Part shown: positions 24,434-30,418 of the stretch, one piece after another | How positions within the stretch are numbered: the stretch's first letter is position 1 | Layout: every line of letters starts with the position of its first letter | From: Escherichia phage vB_EcoM-Ro157lw | Direction: 5' to 3' (one strand) | Sequence record: MH051335.1 | Length of the DNA stretch: 64,000 bases | Made by a program: the position numbers and the translations under genes | The notes under the pieces: generated by a model | Seen by the model: the letters and a program-made list of their open reading frames with translations, nothing else | Databases searched by the model: none | Told to the model about the DNA's origin: nothing

Positions 24434-27172
24434 ATGCAAAAGTTTGACACAAACCTGTTGCAAAACCTTAAGTGGATGCAGAACAACGCGCCAAACATCA
24501 CATCTTTGGTTCAGAAGAAGAGTGATTGGTATGAGCGATATCAAGATCAGTTTTGGATTGACTGGTACAAAAACATATTCAACATTGATACTTGTGATGC
24601 AATGGGCATCTATATTTGGTGCGACATCCTATGCATACCAAGAGACTTTGTTGACTTAAGTAACTATGAGCACAACTGGGCATTCGGGCCAACACGCGAC
24701 AACTTTGAAGGGCCGGACAATATCGGCGGCAACTTCTTTGGTGCTGGCGGAAAGGTTGTGAAAAACATTGAAGAAGCGCGCATCCTTCTGAAGCTTCGTT
24801 ATCTGACGCTTACAAGTGATGGCCGCATCGAAAGCATCAACCGTATGCTTAAGTGGATTTTTAACCGTGGGGAAGCTTGGGATTACTCTTCATCCAGATA
24901 CGCATATGTGACAGACAATACTCAAGGCGCGGTGTCTTCTTCTGAATCAACAAACGGTTCATTCCTTCTGTATGACTGGCAGGGGTCGACTGAGATTCAG
25001 CACGATTATAAACAAATTCTTTTGAGTCACGGCAACAACGCAGGACTTACCATAAGTGGGGTGGCAGGGACTGTTTCGCGAATGGCACACCCAGACTGGT
25101 ATTCATGGGGTAATGGCTCCGGCGCTGGTATTGTCGGCGGTGATACGCGCCAATATGGCGGCCCTGACTATTACGGCCAACTGTGTGGTGATTACCCAGG
25201 AGAGGCCATAGAGAATTTCGCCAACGCAGTACGGGTCATCAAGACCGCTTCCAGCGGCGAGCCTGTGTATTCTTTGGCCAGTAATCCAAGCGCCCAATCT
25301 ATTGCGCTTCCTTCTCAGGCTGGTGTCAATGTTTGCTATAGCTTCTACATAAAAGTGCTTTCTGAAAACGTGGCTTCTGTTTCCGTAACAGAGAACAGTG
25401 ATGCATCGAGTAATGGAAAACTTTTCGACCCAGTGACTGGGCAGTTCAACCTTGACTCTTCTTTGAGTTATTTCATCACAGGCAAGTTCGACGGTGTGAG
25501 AAGGGAATCAAACCGTGGTGGCATCAAGGCAATCGGCGGCGATTGGTACAGAATCTGGATTGTAGAACAAACTGCGAACGCGACAGCTGGGGTAAACACA
25601 AGCTTTTCAATTGAGTTGAAAGCAACTGCCGCTGGATCAACTCAGACTCGCGAATTGCCTGAAGGGTCTGATGCGCTTCTTTTTGGATACTCAATTTGTG
25701 TTTGCGACCCTGTTCAGAATCCTAATGGGCCTGAGCCTTATTTCTATGGGACTCAAAATCCGCCTGCAGATGGCACAGCAATTTTGTCTGTTACGGCAGG
25801 AACGCTCAACAACATTTCTTGCGCAAACGGTCCGTTGACGACAAGAAATGGCGTGGTGGGCGAGTCATTTATGCAGCCTGGGTCATCACTTGCGTACTCT
25901 GGTTCAATCGGCGGCTACCCGTACCCAGGAAACGCCACTCTAATCGCAGAAACAGACGGAATCAGACGCTCATGGAACGTTAGCCGATTGGACGGAGTAC
26001 CGCCGCCGCCGACCGCTGACTATTACATGGAATATGTCATCGGGCCTTATTTCGCCAACAACTTGTCTGATAACTTTAAGACGCTAGTTGGCGACAGGAA
26101 TGAAGGATTCTTGCCAGCCAATGCCGGAATACGTTGGCAGCTTTACCAAGAAGTCGCAGACTTATCCGATATTGATTTGACTGTCAGCAACATAACAGAC
26201 ACGCGAGTAGGATTCGAAACGGAAGGTGTCGCATGGATTAACACTGACGGGATCATCAGAGTTGGCGGCATAAACGAGTGGCCGTTGAACAACTTTAATG
26301 GTGTTATAAGACAGCTTGAATCTCTGAAAGGTGTGAACCAAGTCATCGACGGCGCACTTGTCAACGACTATTCAATCTCAAAAGCTTCAAGAGATGACTT
26401 TGGTCGTGAAATTCCACGCGCGGCAATCACTAACTACTGGCGATACACACAGCCCAATGACGGCACATCTTTTGGCAATATCGTCAAGGACGGAGCTAAC
26501 ACGGTAACGGCGACGCCAATCAGCGGTGTGCCCAACCAGTTCCCATCATTCAAGCTTTCCGCTACAATAGGGACTGTGCCAGCGTCCGGTTATGCACGCG
26601 CTGTACTTGCTACTAAATACACTGGCACCTTGACTGGTCCTTTGTCATTTATCGCAATAGTTAAAAACAACACGGTAAACGGTCAAAAACTTTTCGTAAC
26701 CGTACCGGATGGTATGGGCGGCTATATCCCTAAATTCTACAGCATAGGCGCAGGTGATTTGCAACGTATCGAAATTGACCTTGCTGCTGAGATTGTTGCA
26801 GGAACGACTTGGGATGGTTCGACAGGTGGAATCAGCATTGGTTTGATATCAGGGAAAGACTTGCCGACCGAAGTTGGTACGACTCTTGAACTTGATATTT
26901 TAAGCTTGATGCTTGTTTCTGGTAATACGATGAATGCGCTTGCGATTTCAACAAGCGAAGACTTTACAAAGAAAACTGCAACTTCTATATACATCAAAAA
27001 CCCAGGGTCACTGGCGACTGGAGTTCAATTGATAGCTTCGAATGGGGATGTTGTAGCGACAGTAAACTTTCCAAGAAGTGCTGCTGGCGGTTATGTTTCA
27101 AGCATGAATATAACTGACTTAACTGGTGATTGGGCATCAACCCTTTTATCAAAAATTAAATACATCGTGTAG
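24434..27172 (+). CDS. large tail fibre / baseplate-associated receptor-binding protein
   Basis: 912 aa, Gly/Ser/Thr/Asn-rich; located between baseplate genes and the distal fibre. Confidence 0.5.
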   Translation: MQKFDTNLLQNLKWMQNNAPNITSLVQKKSDWYERYQDQFWIDWYKNIFNIDTCDAMGIYIWCDILCIPRDFVDLSNYEHNWAFGPTRDNFEGPDNIGGNFFGAGGKVVKNIEEARILLKLRYLTLTSDGRIESINRMLKWIFNRGEAWDYSSSRYAYVTDNTQGAVSSSESTNGSFLLYDWQGSTEIQHDYKQILLSHGNNAGLTISGVAGTVSRMAHPDWYSWGNGSGAGIVGGDTRQYGGPDYYGQLCGDYPGEAIENFANAVRVIKTASSGEPVYSLASNPSAQSIALPSQAGVNVCYSFYIKVLSENVASVSVTENSDASSNGKLFDPVTGQFNLDSSLSYFITGKFDGVRRESNRGGIKAIGGDWYRIWIVEQTANATAGVNTSFSIELKATAAGSTQTRELPEGSDALLFGYSICVCDPVQNPNGPEPYFYGTQNPPADGTAILSVTAGTLNNISCANGPLTTRNGVVGESFMQPGSSLAYSGSIGGYPYPGNATLIAETDGIRRSWNVSRLDGVPPPPTADYYMEYVIGPYFANNLSDNFKTLVGDRNEGFLPANAGIRWQLYQEVADLSDIDLTVSNITDTRVGFETEGVAWINTDGIIRVGGINEWPLNNFNGVIRQLESLKGVNQVIDGALVNDYSISKASRDDFGREIPRAAITNYWRYTQPNDGTSFGNIVKDGANTVTATPISGVPNQFPSFKLSATIGTVPASGYARAVLATKYTGTLTGPLSFIAIVKNNTVNGQKLFVTVPDGMGGYIPKFYSIGAGDLQRIEIDLAAEIVAGTTWDGSTGGISIGLISGKDLPTEVGTTLELDILSLMLVSGNTMNALAISTSEDFTKKTATSIYIKNPGSLATGVQLIASNGDVVATVNFPRSAAGGYVSSMNITDLTGDWASTLLSKIKYIV

Positions 27173-27182
27173 AGGAACGGCA

Positions 27183-28970
27183 ATGCCAACACTTATTAAC
27201 AGACCTTTCGCGCAAAGCGGTGATGTATCCGTGGTGCCGGATGCAAGCCCAAGCGGTTATGTAAACTTCCAGCGCGGCTACACCCCTGACTATGCGCTTG
27301 CTCTGGAGGCCGGAAACGTCGCCGCGAAAGCTGTTGAGCGCGAATCGATGAACTGGTTGCTGAATTTGATTACAGACAACCTTATGTTTATTCAAGATCA
27401 TGGTGCTCAACAATATTTCTCTTCTGACTTGAAGCCGGATGGATACCCGAAAAATGCCATTGTTGTCAGCAACTCTGGAACGCCTTCAGCGCCTGAGTGG
27501 CGCATCTTTCAAAGCGTGGTCGACGGCAACACAAGCGCCGTACCAGCTAACGGAGAAACGGAATCTTGGCAGGAATTAACGCTGCCCAGCGAAGCGCGAA
27601 AATACATTCCGATGCCTGCCGGAGGCGATGCGCAAAACCCGTACTTCGTTCGCGGATTGATTTCAAGCTTTGTGGACTTCGATAATATTACGACTTCCAC
27701 AACTATCGTCATTCAATCCGATGCCGTCGCCGCTCTGTGCTCTAACATCCCGAATGCGGTTGGCGCGACGAAGGTTGCAGGTCGCCTTCAGGTTTGCGCT
27801 TGGCAGGTCGATGCGCAAACCTTTGCCTTGCAGCAATATACATCAATGAATGGCTATTTGTTTACCCGCTCTTACACTTCTGGTGCTTGGAGTGCTTGGA
27901 TTCAAAATGCCACTGTTCAAGACGTGCAAATTGGAACGCCGAATCTTGCATCAGGTAAAGGAGCGCAAGACATAATCCTTACCGTCCCAGCAGGTTATTC
28001 ATGGCCTCCGTCAGCAGGTAGTCGCCTGACAATCGTCAATGATGTAACGACTACCGGACCTGTCACCGTGACCATTGGTGTAAACAAAGTTGCCGTTCTT
28101 GGATTCGACGGCGGCGAGTTGCCAGCTGGCGCTATCGTAGGCTTGCTGCCATTCACCATCATTTATGACGGCACTGTTTGGCGTCTCCTTCAGGCGTTTG
28201 GCGCGGCGCAAATCGGCGTTGATGCTACTGAGGCGCAACAGTTTGTTACAAAGCGCCAACTCGATGCTTTGGCTGCGAAATTGATCACTATGGGCGACGT
28301 ATTCGAAGTCGGTGAGACTCGATTCCTCACCAACGGAACAGACCCGAATACTAAACTGGGCGCTTACGGCCAGGTATGGACACGACTTCCTGATAACATG
28401 GTCATCAGAACATCTGGCACGGCGCGAAACGGTCTTGCCACTGGCGGCGCGGACTCTGTTACTCTCACCGCTGCAATGCTTCCTCTCCACAATCACAGCG
28501 TGAACATTACCACGCGACAAAGTGGTCCATGGTCTAATACCACTGGAGATGCTGGAAATCACAACCACACAGGTGATACAAGTCAAAACGGTGCTCACGT
28601 GCATGGAATGGATACGGCAGGCAACCATCACCATGACAGCAGCTGGGGTGAAGCCAATACTAGCGATGCGCGGTACGGCGTTTATGATGGGACACACAAC
28701 AACTTCGGAAGTCGCAAAGGCGGCGACTGGGATAACTACAAATACAACACTTCGACTAACGGCAACCACGTCCATAATATTCAATCTTCTGGATCACACA
28801 CCCATGGGTTGAATATAAATTACGCTGGCAATCACAGCCACAGTTATACCCTTCCCGCTCACACTCATGATGTGGTCGGTAACACTGGCGATGCAGGACA
28901 GTCGGTGCCAACGGCTGTTGCGACTTTGCCGCGATACGTTGTTTTGAATGGCTGGTACAGAAGCGCATAA
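27183..28970 (+). CDS. tail fibre protein with His-rich HxH repeat region near the C-terminus
   Basis: Repeated HNH, HNHT, HVHG, HHHD, HVHN, HTHG, HSHS, HTHD motifs around residues 440-560, like metal-binding HxH fibre tips. Confidence 0.55.
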   Translation: MPTLINRPFAQSGDVSVVPDASPSGYVNFQRGYTPDYALALEAGNVAAKAVERESMNWLLNLITDNLMFIQDHGAQQYFSSDLKPDGYPKNAIVVSNSGTPSAPEWRIFQSVVDGNTSAVPANGETESWQELTLPSEARKYIPMPAGGDAQNPYFVRGLISSFVDFDNITTSTTIVIQSDAVAALCSNIPNAVGATKVAGRLQVCAWQVDAQTFALQQYTSMNGYLFTRSYTSGAWSAWIQNATVQDVQIGTPNLASGKGAQDIILTVPAGYSWPPSAGSRLTIVNDVTTTGPVTVTIGVNKVAVLGFDGGELPAGAIVGLLPFTIIYDGTVWRLLQAFGAAQIGVDATEAQQFVTKRQLDALAAKLITMGDVFEVGETRFLTNGTDPNTKLGAYGQVWTRLPDNMVIRTSGTARNGLATGGADSVTLTAAMLPLHNHSVNITTRQSGPWSNTTGDAGNHNHTGDTSQNGAHVHGMDTAGNHHHDSSWGEANTSDARYGVYDGTHNNFGSRKGGDWDNYKYNTSTNGNHVHNIQSSGSHTHGLNINYAGNHSHSYTLPAHTHDVVGNTGDAGQSVPTAVATLPRYVVLNGWYRSA

Positions 28971-28978
28971 GGTGATTT

Positions 28979-29623
28979 ATGATTAACGCAAACGTAATAT
29001 CTAAAGGGACCGGATGCAGCATGGATGTTGCAGAGAAATGGGTGGACCCTTTCAAGCAGGCTTGTGAGCACTACGGAATCAAAAGCAAGAGTGCCATCGC
29101 GGCATTCCTTGCAAACGTAGGAGTAGAGACAGGCAGCTTGAAAACATTTGTGGAAAATCTCAACTACTCTGCACAGGGTCTTGCCAACACGTGGCCTAGT
29201 CGTTACAGCGTCAACGGTCGCTCTGGAAGTTCCCCGAACTCATTGGCCCTGTCGATTGCCCGTAAACCAATGGAAATCGCCAATAATACATATGCAAACC
29301 GCATGGGAAATGGTTCGGTAGCATCTGGCGACGGCTGGAAGTACCGTGGCCGTGGTGCCATTCAGCTGACTGGCAAGGCGAACTATGCGGAATATACGCG
29401 CCAATCAGGCTATGATGCGTTGAACAATCCTGATATTCTGACTGAACCAAAATACATTGCCGACAGCGCGGCATGGTTCTTTAAGAATAGCGGTTGTATC
29501 CCTCTTGCGGATGCAGGAAATTTTGATTCAACCGTTAAGCGAATTAACGGGGCCGCGCCGAACGCAGCAAACCACGGTGAGTTGCGAAGAAAGCGTTACA
29601 AAGATGCACTAGCAGTTATGTAA
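28979..29623 (+). CDS. endolysin, glycoside hydrolase family 19 (chitinase class I-like)
   Basis: GH19-type motifs including YRGRGAIQLTGKANY and AAFLANVGVETG; no signal peptide. Confidence 0.75.
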   Translation: MINANVISKGTGCSMDVAEKWVDPFKQACEHYGIKSKSAIAAFLANVGVETGSLKTFVENLNYSAQGLANTWPSRYSVNGRSGSSPNSLALSIARKPMEIANNTYANRMGNGSVASGDGWKYRGRGAIQLTGKANYAEYTRQSGYDALNNPDILTEPKYIADSAAWFFKNSGCIPLADAGNFDSTVKRINGAAPNAANHGELRRKRYKDALAVM

Positions 29624-29648: not shown

Positions 29649-29879
29649 TTATTTTACGGCTTCAACTTGGACGGGCGGAGCGGAACTTGTATCAATGTCT
29701 GGCAAGTCGAAGTAATACCCCGCCATACCAATCACACCCACAATCGCGGCCCGTGCCACCTTGCTGCTAATTGACTCCCCAATAAGCTTTACCAACAGGG
29801 ATAAGATTTGAGACGTCAAAGCCTTTTTCAGCCTTTTGTTTTCTTCCAAATCTTTCTGCATAACTACCACCCATGTCAA
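29649..29879 (-). CDS. small protein with one C-proximal hydrophobic helix; holin or antiholin candidate
   Basis: 76 aa; AAIVGVIGMAGYYF hydrophobic segment; convergent with the endolysin. Confidence 0.35.
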   Translation of the reverse strand: MTWVVVMQKDLEENKRLKKALTSQILSLLVKLIGESISSKVARAAIVGVIGMAGYYFDLPDIDTSSAPPVQVEAVK

Positions 29880-30418
29880 CGCACTTCCTGTGTCTTAACA
29901 TTACCTGAAGCATCTCTCAAGGGCAGTGGATAGTAGGCCATTTGGTAGTCTGATACGCCTTCAATGTGATAAAACACGATTACGTCTTTGCTGTTGATGA
30001 GCATGTTAACGACATCTGATTTATCTTCTGGAGTGAGTATTAGTGCGCCGCCTGTCCTGCTGTCTACTGCAACAGGGTATGTCTTGTCGACAAGGCCGCT
30101 GTCCAATGTATTATACCTGACAACGATTTCAGGGGCATCAACTTTTGCCATTGACATTCCGAACACAAACGACACTACTTGTCGACCGCGATCATTCATT
30201 ACGCACATCTTTTCTTTGTCAAATCTTTCTTTTATTACGTCGTATTTGTTCCAGCAGAACTCAAAGGATTGCCCATTGTTGAAATATCTTGTCAAAACTT
30301 TTGCACTTCCATTCGGCGGCGTAAACATATTTTCAGCCGATGCAGTCTTGGTGAAGAATATAACTGTCAGCATAGCCATGATGATGATCAAAACAATCTT
30401 TAATTTGTTCGCTTTCAT
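29876..30418 (-). CDS. secreted or membrane-anchored protein (180 aa) with N-terminal signal sequence
   Basis: N-terminus MKANKLKIVLIIIMAMLTVIFFTKTASA (basic n-region, hydrophobic core, ASA cleavage-like site). Confidence 0.5.
   Translation of the reverse strand: MKANKLKIVLIIIMAMLTVIFFTKTASAENMFTPPNGSAKVLTRYFNNGQSFEFCWNKYDVIKERFDKEKMCVMNDRGRQVVSFVFGMSMAKVDAPEIVVRYNTLDSGLVDKTYPVAVDSRTGGALILTPEDKSDVVNMLINSKDVIVFYHIEGVSDYQMAYYPLPLRDASGNVKTQEVR

What the first reader, a model, noticed from the sequence alone, without database searches (positions are those of the whole stretch)
27183..28970. His-rich HxH repeat block in the distal tail fibre
About ten HxH-type motifs are clustered within roughly 120 residues near the C-terminus. 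Similar histidine boxes coordinate metal ions in interdigitated trimeric fibre tips of T4-like phages. The antisense ORF 28011-28784 is a by-product of this biased region.
Basis: partly seen in the sequence, partly recalled or inferred. Interest (0 to 1): 0.4.

Follow-up and report, generated by a model that had tools for sequence, protein, structure and literature searches.

The report
Known T4-like histidine-metal tail fibre tip
The histidine cluster is real and marks a T4-gp37-type, probably metal-stapled needle tip on the conserved tail fibre of a Wifcevirus coliphage, but it was already described for a near-identical phage, so it is ordinary.

Summary
The gene at 27183-28970 (+) encodes a 595-aa tail fibre of a Wifcevirus-type E. 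coli myovirus (89-97% nt identity to 28 published phages). It carries 8 HxH motifs, not about ten, in aa 436-562. This is far more than chance, and all 16 motif histidines are invariant in 8 orthologues.

A family profile matches the T4 gp37 receptor-binding tip (hhalign 98.9%, E 2.4e-17). The layout is the same: collar, 4 HxH going out, a variable 44-aa head, 4 HxH coming back, then a C-terminal strand. T4 has 3+4 HxH holding seven iron atoms.

The N-terminal 370 aa match the baseplate-attached fibre gp47 of Pseudomonas phage Pa193. The upstream gene is a baseplate wedge protein. So this is a one-piece fibre, not a "distal" half-fibre.

The antisense ORF is non-coding. It is explained by the absence of TTA/CTA/TCA sense codons, not by histidine bias as such.

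[quoted passage not shown] Metal binding and trimer geometry remain inferred.

The parts
27183..28970 (+). Tail fibre gene (595 aa plus stop). It is the orthologue of the conserved Wifcevirus tail fibre (ManiWeber Bas99_0031, called 'Gp32' in the paper).
   Evidence: ORF. 89-97% nt identity over 100% of its length to 28 Wifcevirus records. Synteny of wedge, fibre and endolysin genes. Variable sites at codon positions 1/2/3 number 48/20/301 across 8 orthologues.
27183..28292 (+). N-terminal anchor and shaft (aa 1-370). It resembles the beads-on-a-string region of Pa193 gp47 that docks on the baseplate wedge.
   Evidence: phmmer against PDB 9B45 chain gp47: aa 2-372 align to residues 4-368, E 1.3e-31. 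phrog_4900 and phrog_5717, both 'tail protein'. Structural description in PMC11456595. Only 4% of aa sites vary among orthologues.
28293..28487 (+). First part of the collar domain (aa 371-435), of the gp37 D10 / gp10 C-terminal type. It ends in the motif TGG-x-DSVTLT-x(3)-LP-x-H.
   Evidence: hhalign of family profile A2 against T4 gp10: 91.4%, E 9e-7 over this segment. PDB 2FKK hit at 7e-4. Homologues carry Pfam PF21939 Gp10_C. The boundaries are approximate, set by analogy with gp37 D10 811-881 (PMC6957217).
28488..28634 (+). Outgoing arm of the needle (aa 436-484) with 4 HxH motifs: H436/H438, H460/H462, H472/H474 and H482/H484.
   Evidence: The His residues are invariant in 8 orthologues. 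Aligned to the gp37 HxH region.
28635..28766 (+). Distal head or tip (aa 485-528). It is the most variable segment and the likely receptor-contact module (WGE..RYGVYD..DWDNYKYNTST).
   Evidence: 34% of aa sites vary, against 4% in the N-terminal part. Two alleles differ by a 1-aa indel. Its position matches the gp37 tip residues 933-959, which were mapped as receptor-binding (PMC6957217). The module is shared with Xenorhabdus and Photorhabdus tail fibre proteins and is replaced by other heads in P0123-P0147.
28767..28868 (+). Returning arm of the needle (aa 529-562) with 4 HxH motifs: H529/H531, H539/H541, H551/H553 and H560/H562.
   Evidence: The His residues are invariant. The spacings 10, 12, 9 mirror the outgoing 10, 12, 24 when read from the tip. 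Aligned to gp37 HxH 966-1000.
28869..28967 (+). C-terminal segment (aa 563-595) that returns to the collar and ends in LNGWYRSA.
   Evidence: W, R and A are invariant across the family. The equivalents are gp37 ...NYIVRLA and gp10 ...YRWIRIA. The distance from the last HxH to the C-terminus is tightly fixed in the family (median 33, 5th-95th percentile 29-36; here 35).
28011..28784 (-). Antisense ORF (257 aa). It is a non-coding by-product lying in register with the sense codons.
   Evidence: It is bounded by sense TCA codons 277 and 538, with no TTA/CTA/TCA between them. The stop-free length varies from 173 to 260 aa among 8 orthologues. In its footprint, variable sites at sense codon positions 1/2/3 number 31/18/168, so most fall on antisense position 1. 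No Pfam or PHROG hit at E<=1. It is never annotated in relatives.
24434..27172 (+). Upstream baseplate wedge or 'triplex' protein (912 aa). It is the probable docking partner of the fibre and is not a proximal half-fibre.
   Evidence: aa 4-185 match Pa193 gp46 'Baseplate wedge 2' (E 1.4e-41) and E217 gp45 triplex (E 4.9e-41). Pfam PF11041 (DUF2612 / Phage_Wedge1), E 2e-15. The gp46 loop binds gp47 in Pa193 (PMC11456595).

Best explanation
The gene encodes the conserved, baseplate-attached, homotrimeric tail fibre of a Wifcevirus-type coliphage.

The N-terminal ~370 aa form beta-sheet 'beads', as in Pbunavirus gp47. They dock on the wedge protein encoded just upstream.

The C-terminal ~225 aa are a T4-gp37-type tip. 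A collar domain (aa ~371-435 plus the last ~20-30 aa) has a long needle inserted into it (aa 436-562).

In the needle each chain runs out to a small distal head (aa 485-528) and back. Each arm carries four G-x-H-x-H motifs.

By homology with gp37, the three chains intertwine. Each HxH level contributes six imidazoles to one octahedral metal site on the three-fold axis. T4 holds Fe2+ at such sites. This fibre would hold up to eight ions.

The ions act as structural staples that set the register and rigidity of the needle. The variable head contacts the host surface.

Shown here: gene, orthology, motif count and conservation, homology to the gp37/gp10 C-terminal domains and to the gp47 N-terminus, and the non-coding status of the antisense ORF. 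Inferred: trimer, interdigitation, metal identity and number, and receptor-binding role of the head.
For: There are 8 HxH motifs, far above chance. All 16 motif His are invariant in 8 orthologues, whereas the two non-motif His (483, 505) vary.

The family profile matches T4 gp37 residues 785-1026 with hhalign probability 98.9%, E 2.4e-17. The top profile hit in the PDB is 2XGF at 3e-5, followed by gp10 C-terminus 2FKK at 7e-4 and the A-1(L) long tail fibre 8KEC at 1.6e-3. The collar segment matches gp10 at 91.4%.

The layout and spacing match. gp37 has HxH at 883, 915, 929 | 966, 980, 989, 998. Here they are at 436, 460, 472, 482 | 529, 539, 551, 560. Both proteins end in ...R-x-A.

Across 243 family members, 85% have out and back HxH counts that differ by at most 1, with matched arm spans. 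The distance from the last HxH to the C-terminus is fixed at 29-36 aa. This is what a hairpin-like needle inserted in a collar predicts.

For gp37, seven iron atoms are coordinated by HxH, H929/H931 are essential, and the tip binds LPS and OmpC (PMC6957217).

The N-terminus matches Pa193 gp47 and the upstream gene matches gp46.

An AlphaFold 3 trimer has been published for the ManiWeber orthologue. [quoted passage not shown]
Against: No trimer model or metal site could be computed here. The AF2 monomer of the C-terminal 226 aa had mean pLDDT 55.8, and Foldseek found nothing.

The window protein itself hits no Pfam family, so the link to gp37/gp10 needs a profile.

The HMM hits have high compositional bias. 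Pairwise BLASTP to gp37 gives only E 3e-5.

No gp38-like chaperone is present in the window. The fibre therefore folds differently from T4 gp37 or uses an unrecognised helper.

The metal identity is unknown. T4 gp12 uses Zn at its single HxH site.

The published trimer ipTM of 0.64 is moderate.
Confidence: 0.85

Rival explanations
1. The C-terminus is a gp12-type short-tail-fibre receptor-binding head with a single zinc site. The additional HxH motifs would be surface decoration rather than an axial metal ladder.
For: T4 gp12 has one HxH (aa 445). PHROG 'tail collar' families match the C-terminal region. There is a weak Pfam S_tail_recep_bd signal at E 0.63. The fibre is conserved across the genus, as a short-fibre-like adhesin would be (PMC11990801).
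Against: hhalign of the family profile against full-length gp12 is not significant (probability 0.2%, E 0.33), whereas gp37 gives 98.9%. All eight motifs, not just one, are invariant. The motif layout mirrors gp37.
Confidence: 0.05
2. The His-rich block is a compositionally biased or flexible segment without bound metal. For example, it could be a pH-sensitive or surface-adhesive stretch, and the resemblance to gp37 would be compositional.
For: The region is rich in G, N, H, S and T. The HMMER hits carry a large bias term. The AF2 monomer is of low confidence there.
Against: Shuffling the same composition almost never gives 8 HxH. The His are invariant while neighbouring residues vary. The G-x-H-x-H context, the balance between arms and the fixed C-terminal distance hold across more than 240 homologues. 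hhalign corrects for composition and still gives E 2.4e-17. Low monomer confidence is expected for an obligate intertwined trimer.
Confidence: 0.06
3. The bound metal has a functional role, not only a structural one. Under the 'Ferrojan horse' idea, fibre iron mimics siderophore-iron to engage an iron-uptake receptor or delivers iron.
For: The hypothesis exists in the literature for HxH fibres (PMC11705849).
Against: In gp37 the irons are buried on the axis and are needed for folding (PMC6957217). BASEL Wifcevirus isolates depend on O16 O-antigen, not on an iron transporter (PMC11990801). Nothing in the window bears on it.
Confidence: 0.02
4. The antisense ORF 28011-28784 is a genuine overlapping gene.
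For: It is 257 aa long with a TTG start. A long stop-free stretch in this antisense frame is present in all 8 orthologues.
Against: Its length changes from 173 to 260 aa because of different stops in different orthologues. Substitutions fall on sense codon position 3, which is antisense position 1. It has no family hit. It is fully explained by the lack of TTA/CTA/TCA sense codons.
Confidence: 0.02

Closest known systems
Conserved tail fibre of Wifcevirus phages (ManiWeber/Bas99 'Gp32' = GenBank Bas99_0031; also kaset CDS0033, ECML-117 AFO10494, Mansfield gp051)
   Same: It is an orthologue. Nucleotide identity is 89-97% over the full length and the synteny is the same: wedge, fibre, then GH19 endolysin. 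The same 8 HxH motifs are present. It has already been predicted to have a gp37-like elongated tip with HxH motifs for ion coordination (PMC11990801).
   Different: Only a few amino-acid differences. This copy carries the 'SSWGEANTSD...GGDWDNYKY' tip allele, as in kaset, FEC19 and Mansfield. ManiWeber, WFH and ECML-117 carry the 1-aa-shorter allele.
T4 gp37 long-tail-fibre receptor-binding tip (domains D10 and D11, PDB 2XGF)
   Same: A collar domain carries an inserted out-and-back needle. G-x-H-x-H motifs lie on both arms and flank a small distal head, and the C-terminus ends in ...R-x-A. Profile homology is 98.9%. In T4 the HxH motifs hold seven Fe ions and the head binds LPS and OmpC (PMC6957217).
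   Different: There are 4+4 HxH instead of 3+4, and a 44-aa head of unrelated sequence instead of ~34 aa. The tip sits on a 370-aa Pbunavirus-type anchor attached directly to the baseplate, not at the end of a four-protein jointed fibre. No gp38 homologue is adjacent or anywhere in the window. Metal has not been demonstrated.
Pbunavirus tail fibre (Pa193 gp47, PDB 9B45; E217 homologue)
   Same: The N-terminal ~370 aa are homologous (E 1.3e-31), and the upstream partner is homologous to gp46/gp45 wedge-triplex. Both are one-piece fibres attached to a simple baseplate.
   Different: Pa193 gp47 is 962 aa with a different and much longer distal part. Beyond residue ~370 there is no significant similarity.
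Pfam PF21939 (Gp10_C) tail-fibre and 'phage baseplate' proteins of Xenorhabdus, Photorhabdus, Erwinia, Serratia and Pantoea prophages
   Same: The collar plus HxH-needle C-terminal domain is the same (26-39% identity). The Xenorhabdus and Photorhabdus subset shares the same head module.
   Different: They are shorter proteins (170-440 aa) with different N-termini (Phage_fiber_2, tail-collar). They usually have 4-6 HxH, though some have up to 17.

Membership tests
T4 gp37-type receptor-binding tip (collar D10 plus HxH needle D11, PDB 2XGF) | Significant sequence or profile homology to gp37 residues ~785-1026 | tested here: met
   hhalign of A2 against gp37 785-1026: probability 98.9%, E 2.4e-17. 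hmmsearch of A1 against the PDB: 2xgf_A is the best hit, E 3e-5. Pairwise BLASTP E 3e-5.
T4 gp37-type receptor-binding tip (collar D10 plus HxH needle D11, PDB 2XGF) | Several G-x-H-x-H motifs on two arms flanking a distal head, inserted in a collar whose last strand is the C-terminus | tested here: met
   4+4 motifs here against 3+4 in gp37, with mirrored spacing and a conserved ...WYRSA end. Arm balance and a fixed C-terminal distance across the family.
T4 gp37-type receptor-binding tip (collar D10 plus HxH needle D11, PDB 2XGF) | Intertwined homotrimer with axial octahedral His6 sites | not testable with these tools
   Only monomer prediction is offered. The monomer model had pLDDT 55.8 and was uninformative. 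A published AF3 trimer of the orthologue reports the gp37-like tip, ipTM 0.64 (PMC11990801).
T4 gp37-type receptor-binding tip (collar D10 plus HxH needle D11, PDB 2XGF) | Bound Fe2+ (seven in T4) | not testable with these tools
   This needs metal analysis of purified protein. The T4 data are in PMC6957217.
T4 gp37-type receptor-binding tip (collar D10 plus HxH needle D11, PDB 2XGF) | Dedicated gp38-type folding chaperone encoded next to the fibre gene | tested here: not met
   The next gene is a GH19 endolysin. tblastn of T4 gp38 against the window finds nothing below E 0.75. gp57A was not tested. This is an accessory feature of T4, not part of the fold definition.
Pfam PF21939 Gp10_C (gp10/gp11/gp12/gp37 collar-head superfamily) | Score above the Pfam gathering threshold | tested here: inconclusive
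   The window protein itself gives no Pfam hit. Its homologues at 26-39% identity all pass. The family profile against T4 gp10 gives 91.4%, E 9e-7 on the collar segment.
T4 gp12 short-tail-fibre receptor-binding domain (PF14928 / SSF88874) | Homology to the gp12 C-terminal head with its single Zn-binding HxH | tested here: not met
   hhalign probability 0.2%, E 0.33. Pfam S_tail_recep_bd E 0.63, below threshold.
Pbunavirus/Wifcevirus baseplate-attached one-piece tail fibre (Pa193 gp47 type) | N-terminal bead domains homologous to gp47 residues 1-~370 | tested here: met
   phmmer E 1.3e-31, aa 2-372 against 4-368. phrog_4900, E 1.8e-46.
Pbunavirus/Wifcevirus baseplate-attached one-piece tail fibre (Pa193 gp47 type) | Encoded directly downstream of the gp46-type wedge/triplex subunit that carries the fibre-attachment loop | tested here: met
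   The N-terminus of the upstream ORF 24434-27172 matches Pa193 gp46 (E 1.4e-41) and E217 gp45. The arrangement is conserved in relatives.
Wifcevirus conserved tail fibre (ManiWeber 'Gp32') | Full-length orthology and synteny with published Wifcevirus genomes | tested here: met
   28 records cover 100% of the gene at 88-97% nt identity. The flanking genes are identical. The paper's numbering runs ahead of the GenBank locus tags (Gp32 vs 0031; Gp114 vs 0109).

The most novel reading that the evidence does not exclude
This invariant fibre would be the Wifcevirus equivalent of a short tail fibre. Its rigid needle, with eight metal sites, would carry a head module that is exchangeable with Xenorhabdus and Photorhabdus prophage or tailocin fibres. 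That head would bind a conserved inner LPS or core structure and trigger contraction, while the separate T-shaped fibre handles O-antigen. The number of HxH rungs (4 to 17 in the family) would act as a modular ruler that sets needle length to the depth of the host's surface glycan layer. A further point is that it folds without a gp38-type chaperone.
Probability: 0.2. Interest if true: 0.35.

Novelty: already known. Interest (0 to 1): 0.12.

Why it matters
It matters little beyond annotation. The result turns a "tail protein / hypothetical protein" label into a domain-resolved description: baseplate anchor, collar, HxH needle and variable head. It also locates the 44-aa segment most likely to set receptor contact, which is useful for host-range engineering of Wifcevirus phages.

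It shows that the gp37-type metal-ladder needle is a portable module found on quite different fibre scaffolds, with 4 to 17 rungs. The principle (T4 gp37, 2010) and its presence in this genus (BASEL paper, 2025) are both published. Only experimental proof of metal content and receptor would add new knowledge.

Tried and rejected
- **Direct Pfam scan** of the protein and of its C-terminal 226 aa: no hit. A profile built from homologues was needed.
- **Single-sequence homologue search** of the C-terminus in the word-indexed database: only 5 hits. The profile search gave 451, and exhaustive phmmer gave 305 representative clusters.
- **AF2 monomer model** of the C-terminal domain with a 107-sequence alignment: mean pLDDT 55.8, pTM 0.28. 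Foldseek against the PDB gave only gp10 at E 3.9. This is uninformative, as expected for an obligate intertwined trimer.
- **Linker-fused triple copy** to mimic a trimer: I prepared it but did not submit it.
- **gp12-like head hypothesis:** rejected by hhalign.
- **DNA-level tandem duplication** as the origin of the HxH repeats: none found.
- **gp38-type chaperone** in the window: none.
- **T-shaped second fibre** (Bas99_0109): not present in the 64-kb window.
- **Antisense ORF as a gene:** rejected.
- **Arm-splitting rule:** the 'largest gap equals head' rule mis-splits proteins whose first HxH is followed by long FDYGTK repeats (the 1+n classes). The 85% balanced figure is therefore conservative, and the sequences are not phylogenetically independent.
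Full report
**What the window is.** The stretch 27183-28970 matches 28 phage records over 100% of its length at 88-97% nucleotide identity. All are Wifcevirus-type E. coli or Shigella myoviruses of about 68 kb, including kaset, TH35, ECML-117, WFH, FEC19, Mansfield and BASEL Bas98-101. In all of them the gene lies between a 912-aa gene and a GH19 endolysin, as it does here.

**The observation.**
- The ORF tool lists a GTG start at 27126, but this overlaps the upstream gene. The ATG at 27183 is preceded by AGAGGAA, and it is the start annotated in every relative.
- It has 19 His, and 18 of them lie in aa 436-562.
- There are eight HxH motifs, at aa 436, 460, 472, 482, 529, 539, 551 and 560. Most sit in a G-(N/A/S)-H-x-H context. 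The count is eight, not "about ten".
- Shuffling the whole protein gives 0.57 motifs on average, with a maximum of 5 in 20,000 shuffles. Shuffling only the His-rich 146 aa reaches 8 in 0.015% of trials.
- No other stop-free stretch in the window has even three HxH.
- There is no tandem repeat at DNA level, so the repetition is old and held at protein level.

**Conservation.**
- In eight orthologues spanning the genus, variable sites at codon positions 1/2/3 number 48/20/301. This shows purifying selection on the + frame.
- All 16 motif histidines are invariant. The middle residues (N/S, V/S, H/Y) and the only non-motif His in the block (H505, which is H, N or R) vary.
- Amino-acid variability by segment is 4% in aa 1-370, 5% in aa 371-435, 12% in the two HxH arms and 34% in aa 485-528, which lies between the fourth and fifth motif. 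There are two alleles that differ by a one-residue indel.

**What the C-terminal part is.**
- The protein itself hits no Pfam family. PHROGs call it a tail, tail-collar or tail-fibre protein.
- Its C-terminal 226 aa retrieve homologues at 26-39% identity that carry Pfam PF21939 (Gp10_C), often with Phage_fiber_2. Exhaustive phmmer finds 305 representative clusters.
- A profile of these homologues finds the T4 gp37 tip (PDB 2XGF, E 3e-5) as the best solved structure. Next come the gp10 C-terminal domain (2FKK, 7e-4) and the long tail fibre of cyanophage A-1(L) (8KEC, 1.6e-3; PMC10966104).
- hhalign of the 107-sequence profile gives 98.9% probability, E 2.4e-17, against T4 gp37 residues 785-1026. 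It gives 91.4%, E 9e-7, against gp10 over the pre-HxH collar segment only. Against gp12 it gives nothing.

**Comparison with the T4 gp37 architecture.**
- gp37 D10 (residues 811-881 and 1010-1026) is a collar shared with gp10, gp11 and gp12. D11 (882-1009) is an elongated insertion in which seven iron atoms are coordinated by HxH motifs. H929 and H931 are essential. The tip residues 933-959 bind LPS and OmpC (PMC6957217).
- gp37 has HxH at 883, 915, 929 | 966, 980, 989, 998, with spacings 32, 14, [37], 14, 9, 9.
- The window protein has 436, 460, 472, 482 | 529, 539, 551, 560, with spacings 24, 12, 10, [47], 10, 12, 9.
- Both proteins end in a conserved ...R-x-A strand.
- The protein therefore maps as follows: collar (aa ~371-435), outgoing arm with 4 HxH (436-484), head (485-528), returning arm with 4 HxH (529-562), and return to the collar (563-595).

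**A sequence-only test of the out-and-back architecture.** Among 243 family members, 85% have out and back HxH counts that differ by at most one, for example 9+8, 8+7, 7+6 and 4+4. In the long members the arm spans are matched, for example 102/92 and 92/82 aa. The distance from the last HxH to the C-terminus is fixed at 29-36 aa, and here it is 35. The sequences are related, so this is supportive rather than a probability.

**What the N-terminal part is.**
- Residues 2-372 align to residues 4-368 of the Pa193 tail fibre gp47 (PDB 9B45) at E 1.3e-31.
- In Pa193 this region forms three trimeric beta-sheet "beads". Loops at residues 38-52 dock on the attachment loop of the wedge/triplex subunit gp46 (PMC11456595).
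- The N-terminal 185 aa of the upstream 912-aa ORF match that gp46 (E 1.4e-41) and E217 gp45.
- This is therefore a one-piece fibre attached directly to the baseplate. The label "distal tail fibre" is wrong, because it implies a T4-like jointed fibre with the upstream gene as the proximal half.
- The same anchor-plus-HxH-tip architecture occurs in other representative clusters (P0123, P0124, P0125, P0129, P0132, P0147). Their N-terminal identity is 32-54%, they have 8-12 HxH, and their heads are unrelated.

**The antisense ORF.**
- ORF 28011-28784 (-) lies exactly in register with the sense codons. Its stops can therefore arise only from sense TTA, CTA or TCA codons.
- The gene has only eight such codons, at 102, 132, 161, 221, 257, 273, 277 and 538. 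This leaves codons 278-537 open.
- That stretch begins 158 codons before the His block, so His richness is not the specific cause.
- Among orthologues the longest stop-free antisense stretch varies from 173 to 260 aa. Substitutions fall on sense position 3 (31/18/168 within the footprint).
- There is no Pfam or PHROG hit, and nobody annotates it. It is a by-product.

**Prior knowledge.**
- Humolli et al. [quoted passage not shown] They add that it is highly conserved across the genus, and they suggest a "more mechanical role" in infection. Their AlphaFold 3 trimer has ipTM 0.64.
- The GenBank tag of the orthologue is Bas99_0031. The paper's numbering runs ahead of the locus tags: its T-shaped fibre "Gp114" is Bas99_0109. 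Bas99_0032 is the endolysin. The identification is therefore secure, although it is inferred.
- HxH counting in gp37-type tips is routine in the field (PMC6563267; PMC11705849).

**Mechanism and confidence.** I put 0.85 on the following.
- The protein is a homotrimeric, baseplate-anchored fibre.
- Its tip is a gp37-type intertwined needle stapled by up to eight axial His6-metal sites.
- The variable 44-aa head is the host-contact module.

Not shown here are trimer geometry, metal identity and number, and the receptor. My only structural attempt, an AF2 monomer, was uninformative.

Differences from T4:
- It has 4+4 rather than 3+4 motifs.
- The head sequence is different.
- The scaffold is different.
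- No gp38-type chaperone is adjacent or anywhere in the window.

**Verdict.** It is already described for a near-identical orthologue and is a member of a well-known structural class. Interest is low.

Noticed in passing
window 24434-27172 (+): The upstream wedge protein is 912 aa, but only its first ~185 aa match Pa193 gp46 (504 aa) and E217 gp45 (500 aa). The remaining ~730 aa have no Pfam assignment; there is only a weak sub-threshold DUF1297 hit, and phrog_4797 has unknown function. They could be an extra baseplate-borne domain, for example a glycan-binding or fibre-like extension.
   Followed up: partly
window 28635-28766 (aa 485-528); proteins P0001, P0006, P0007, P0009, P0015-P0024, P0067, P0086, P0090, P0127: The head module between the 4th and 5th HxH (HxHDSxWGE..RYGxYD..NNxGS..DWDNYK[YF]NTSTxGxHxH) is shared with tail fibre proteins of Xenorhabdus and Photorhabdus, and its sequence match there appears far closer than the 26-39% identity over the whole domain. 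Those proteins have only 4 HxH. This suggests that the head is a horizontally exchanged unit independent of needle length.
   Followed up: partly
L012 5001-5933 (Xenorhabdus bovienii contig JBPFGP010000006.1): The closest non-Wifcevirus homologue, P0001 (310 aa), is an apparently orphan tail-fibre gene. It sits next to an AlpA-like fragment, SrfB/VWA genes, a transposase and DndB. It is not inside a tail gene cluster.
   Followed up: no
family of proteins P0001-P0266: The number of HxH motifs per protein ranges from 4 to 17 (P0021 has 17 in 424 aa; P0014, P0022, P0027, P0036 and P0048 have 15-16), with matched out and back arms. The needle length therefore appears to be modular.
   Followed up: partly
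whole window (1-64000): The second, T-shaped dual-RBD tail fibre described for Wifcevirus (ManiWeber Bas99_0109, 777 aa) gives no tblastn hit in the window at E<=1e-3. It presumably lies in the ~4 kb of genome outside the window.
   Followed up: partly
window 29876-30418 (-): This 180-aa ORF has a signal-peptide-like N-terminus (MKANKLKIVLIIIMAMLTVIFFTKTASA) and no PHROG hit. An ORF of the same length sits at the same position in relatives (Bas99_0034; L014 and L015). It lies between the endolysin and the DNA ligase and could be a secreted or periplasmic protein of unknown role.
   Followed up: no
L001 and L011 (ManiWeber PQ850618.1): The gene numbers used in the BASEL paper (Gp32, Gp114) do not equal the GenBank locus tags (Bas99_0031, Bas99_0109). 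Anyone cross-referencing the paper with the record needs to allow for a growing offset.
   Followed up: yes
window 28979-29623 (+): The gene immediately downstream of the fibre is a GH19 (chitinase class I-type) endolysin rather than a tail-fibre assembly chaperone. The lysis gene therefore closes the structural module on the + strand, and the next genes are on the opposite strand.
   Followed up: partly
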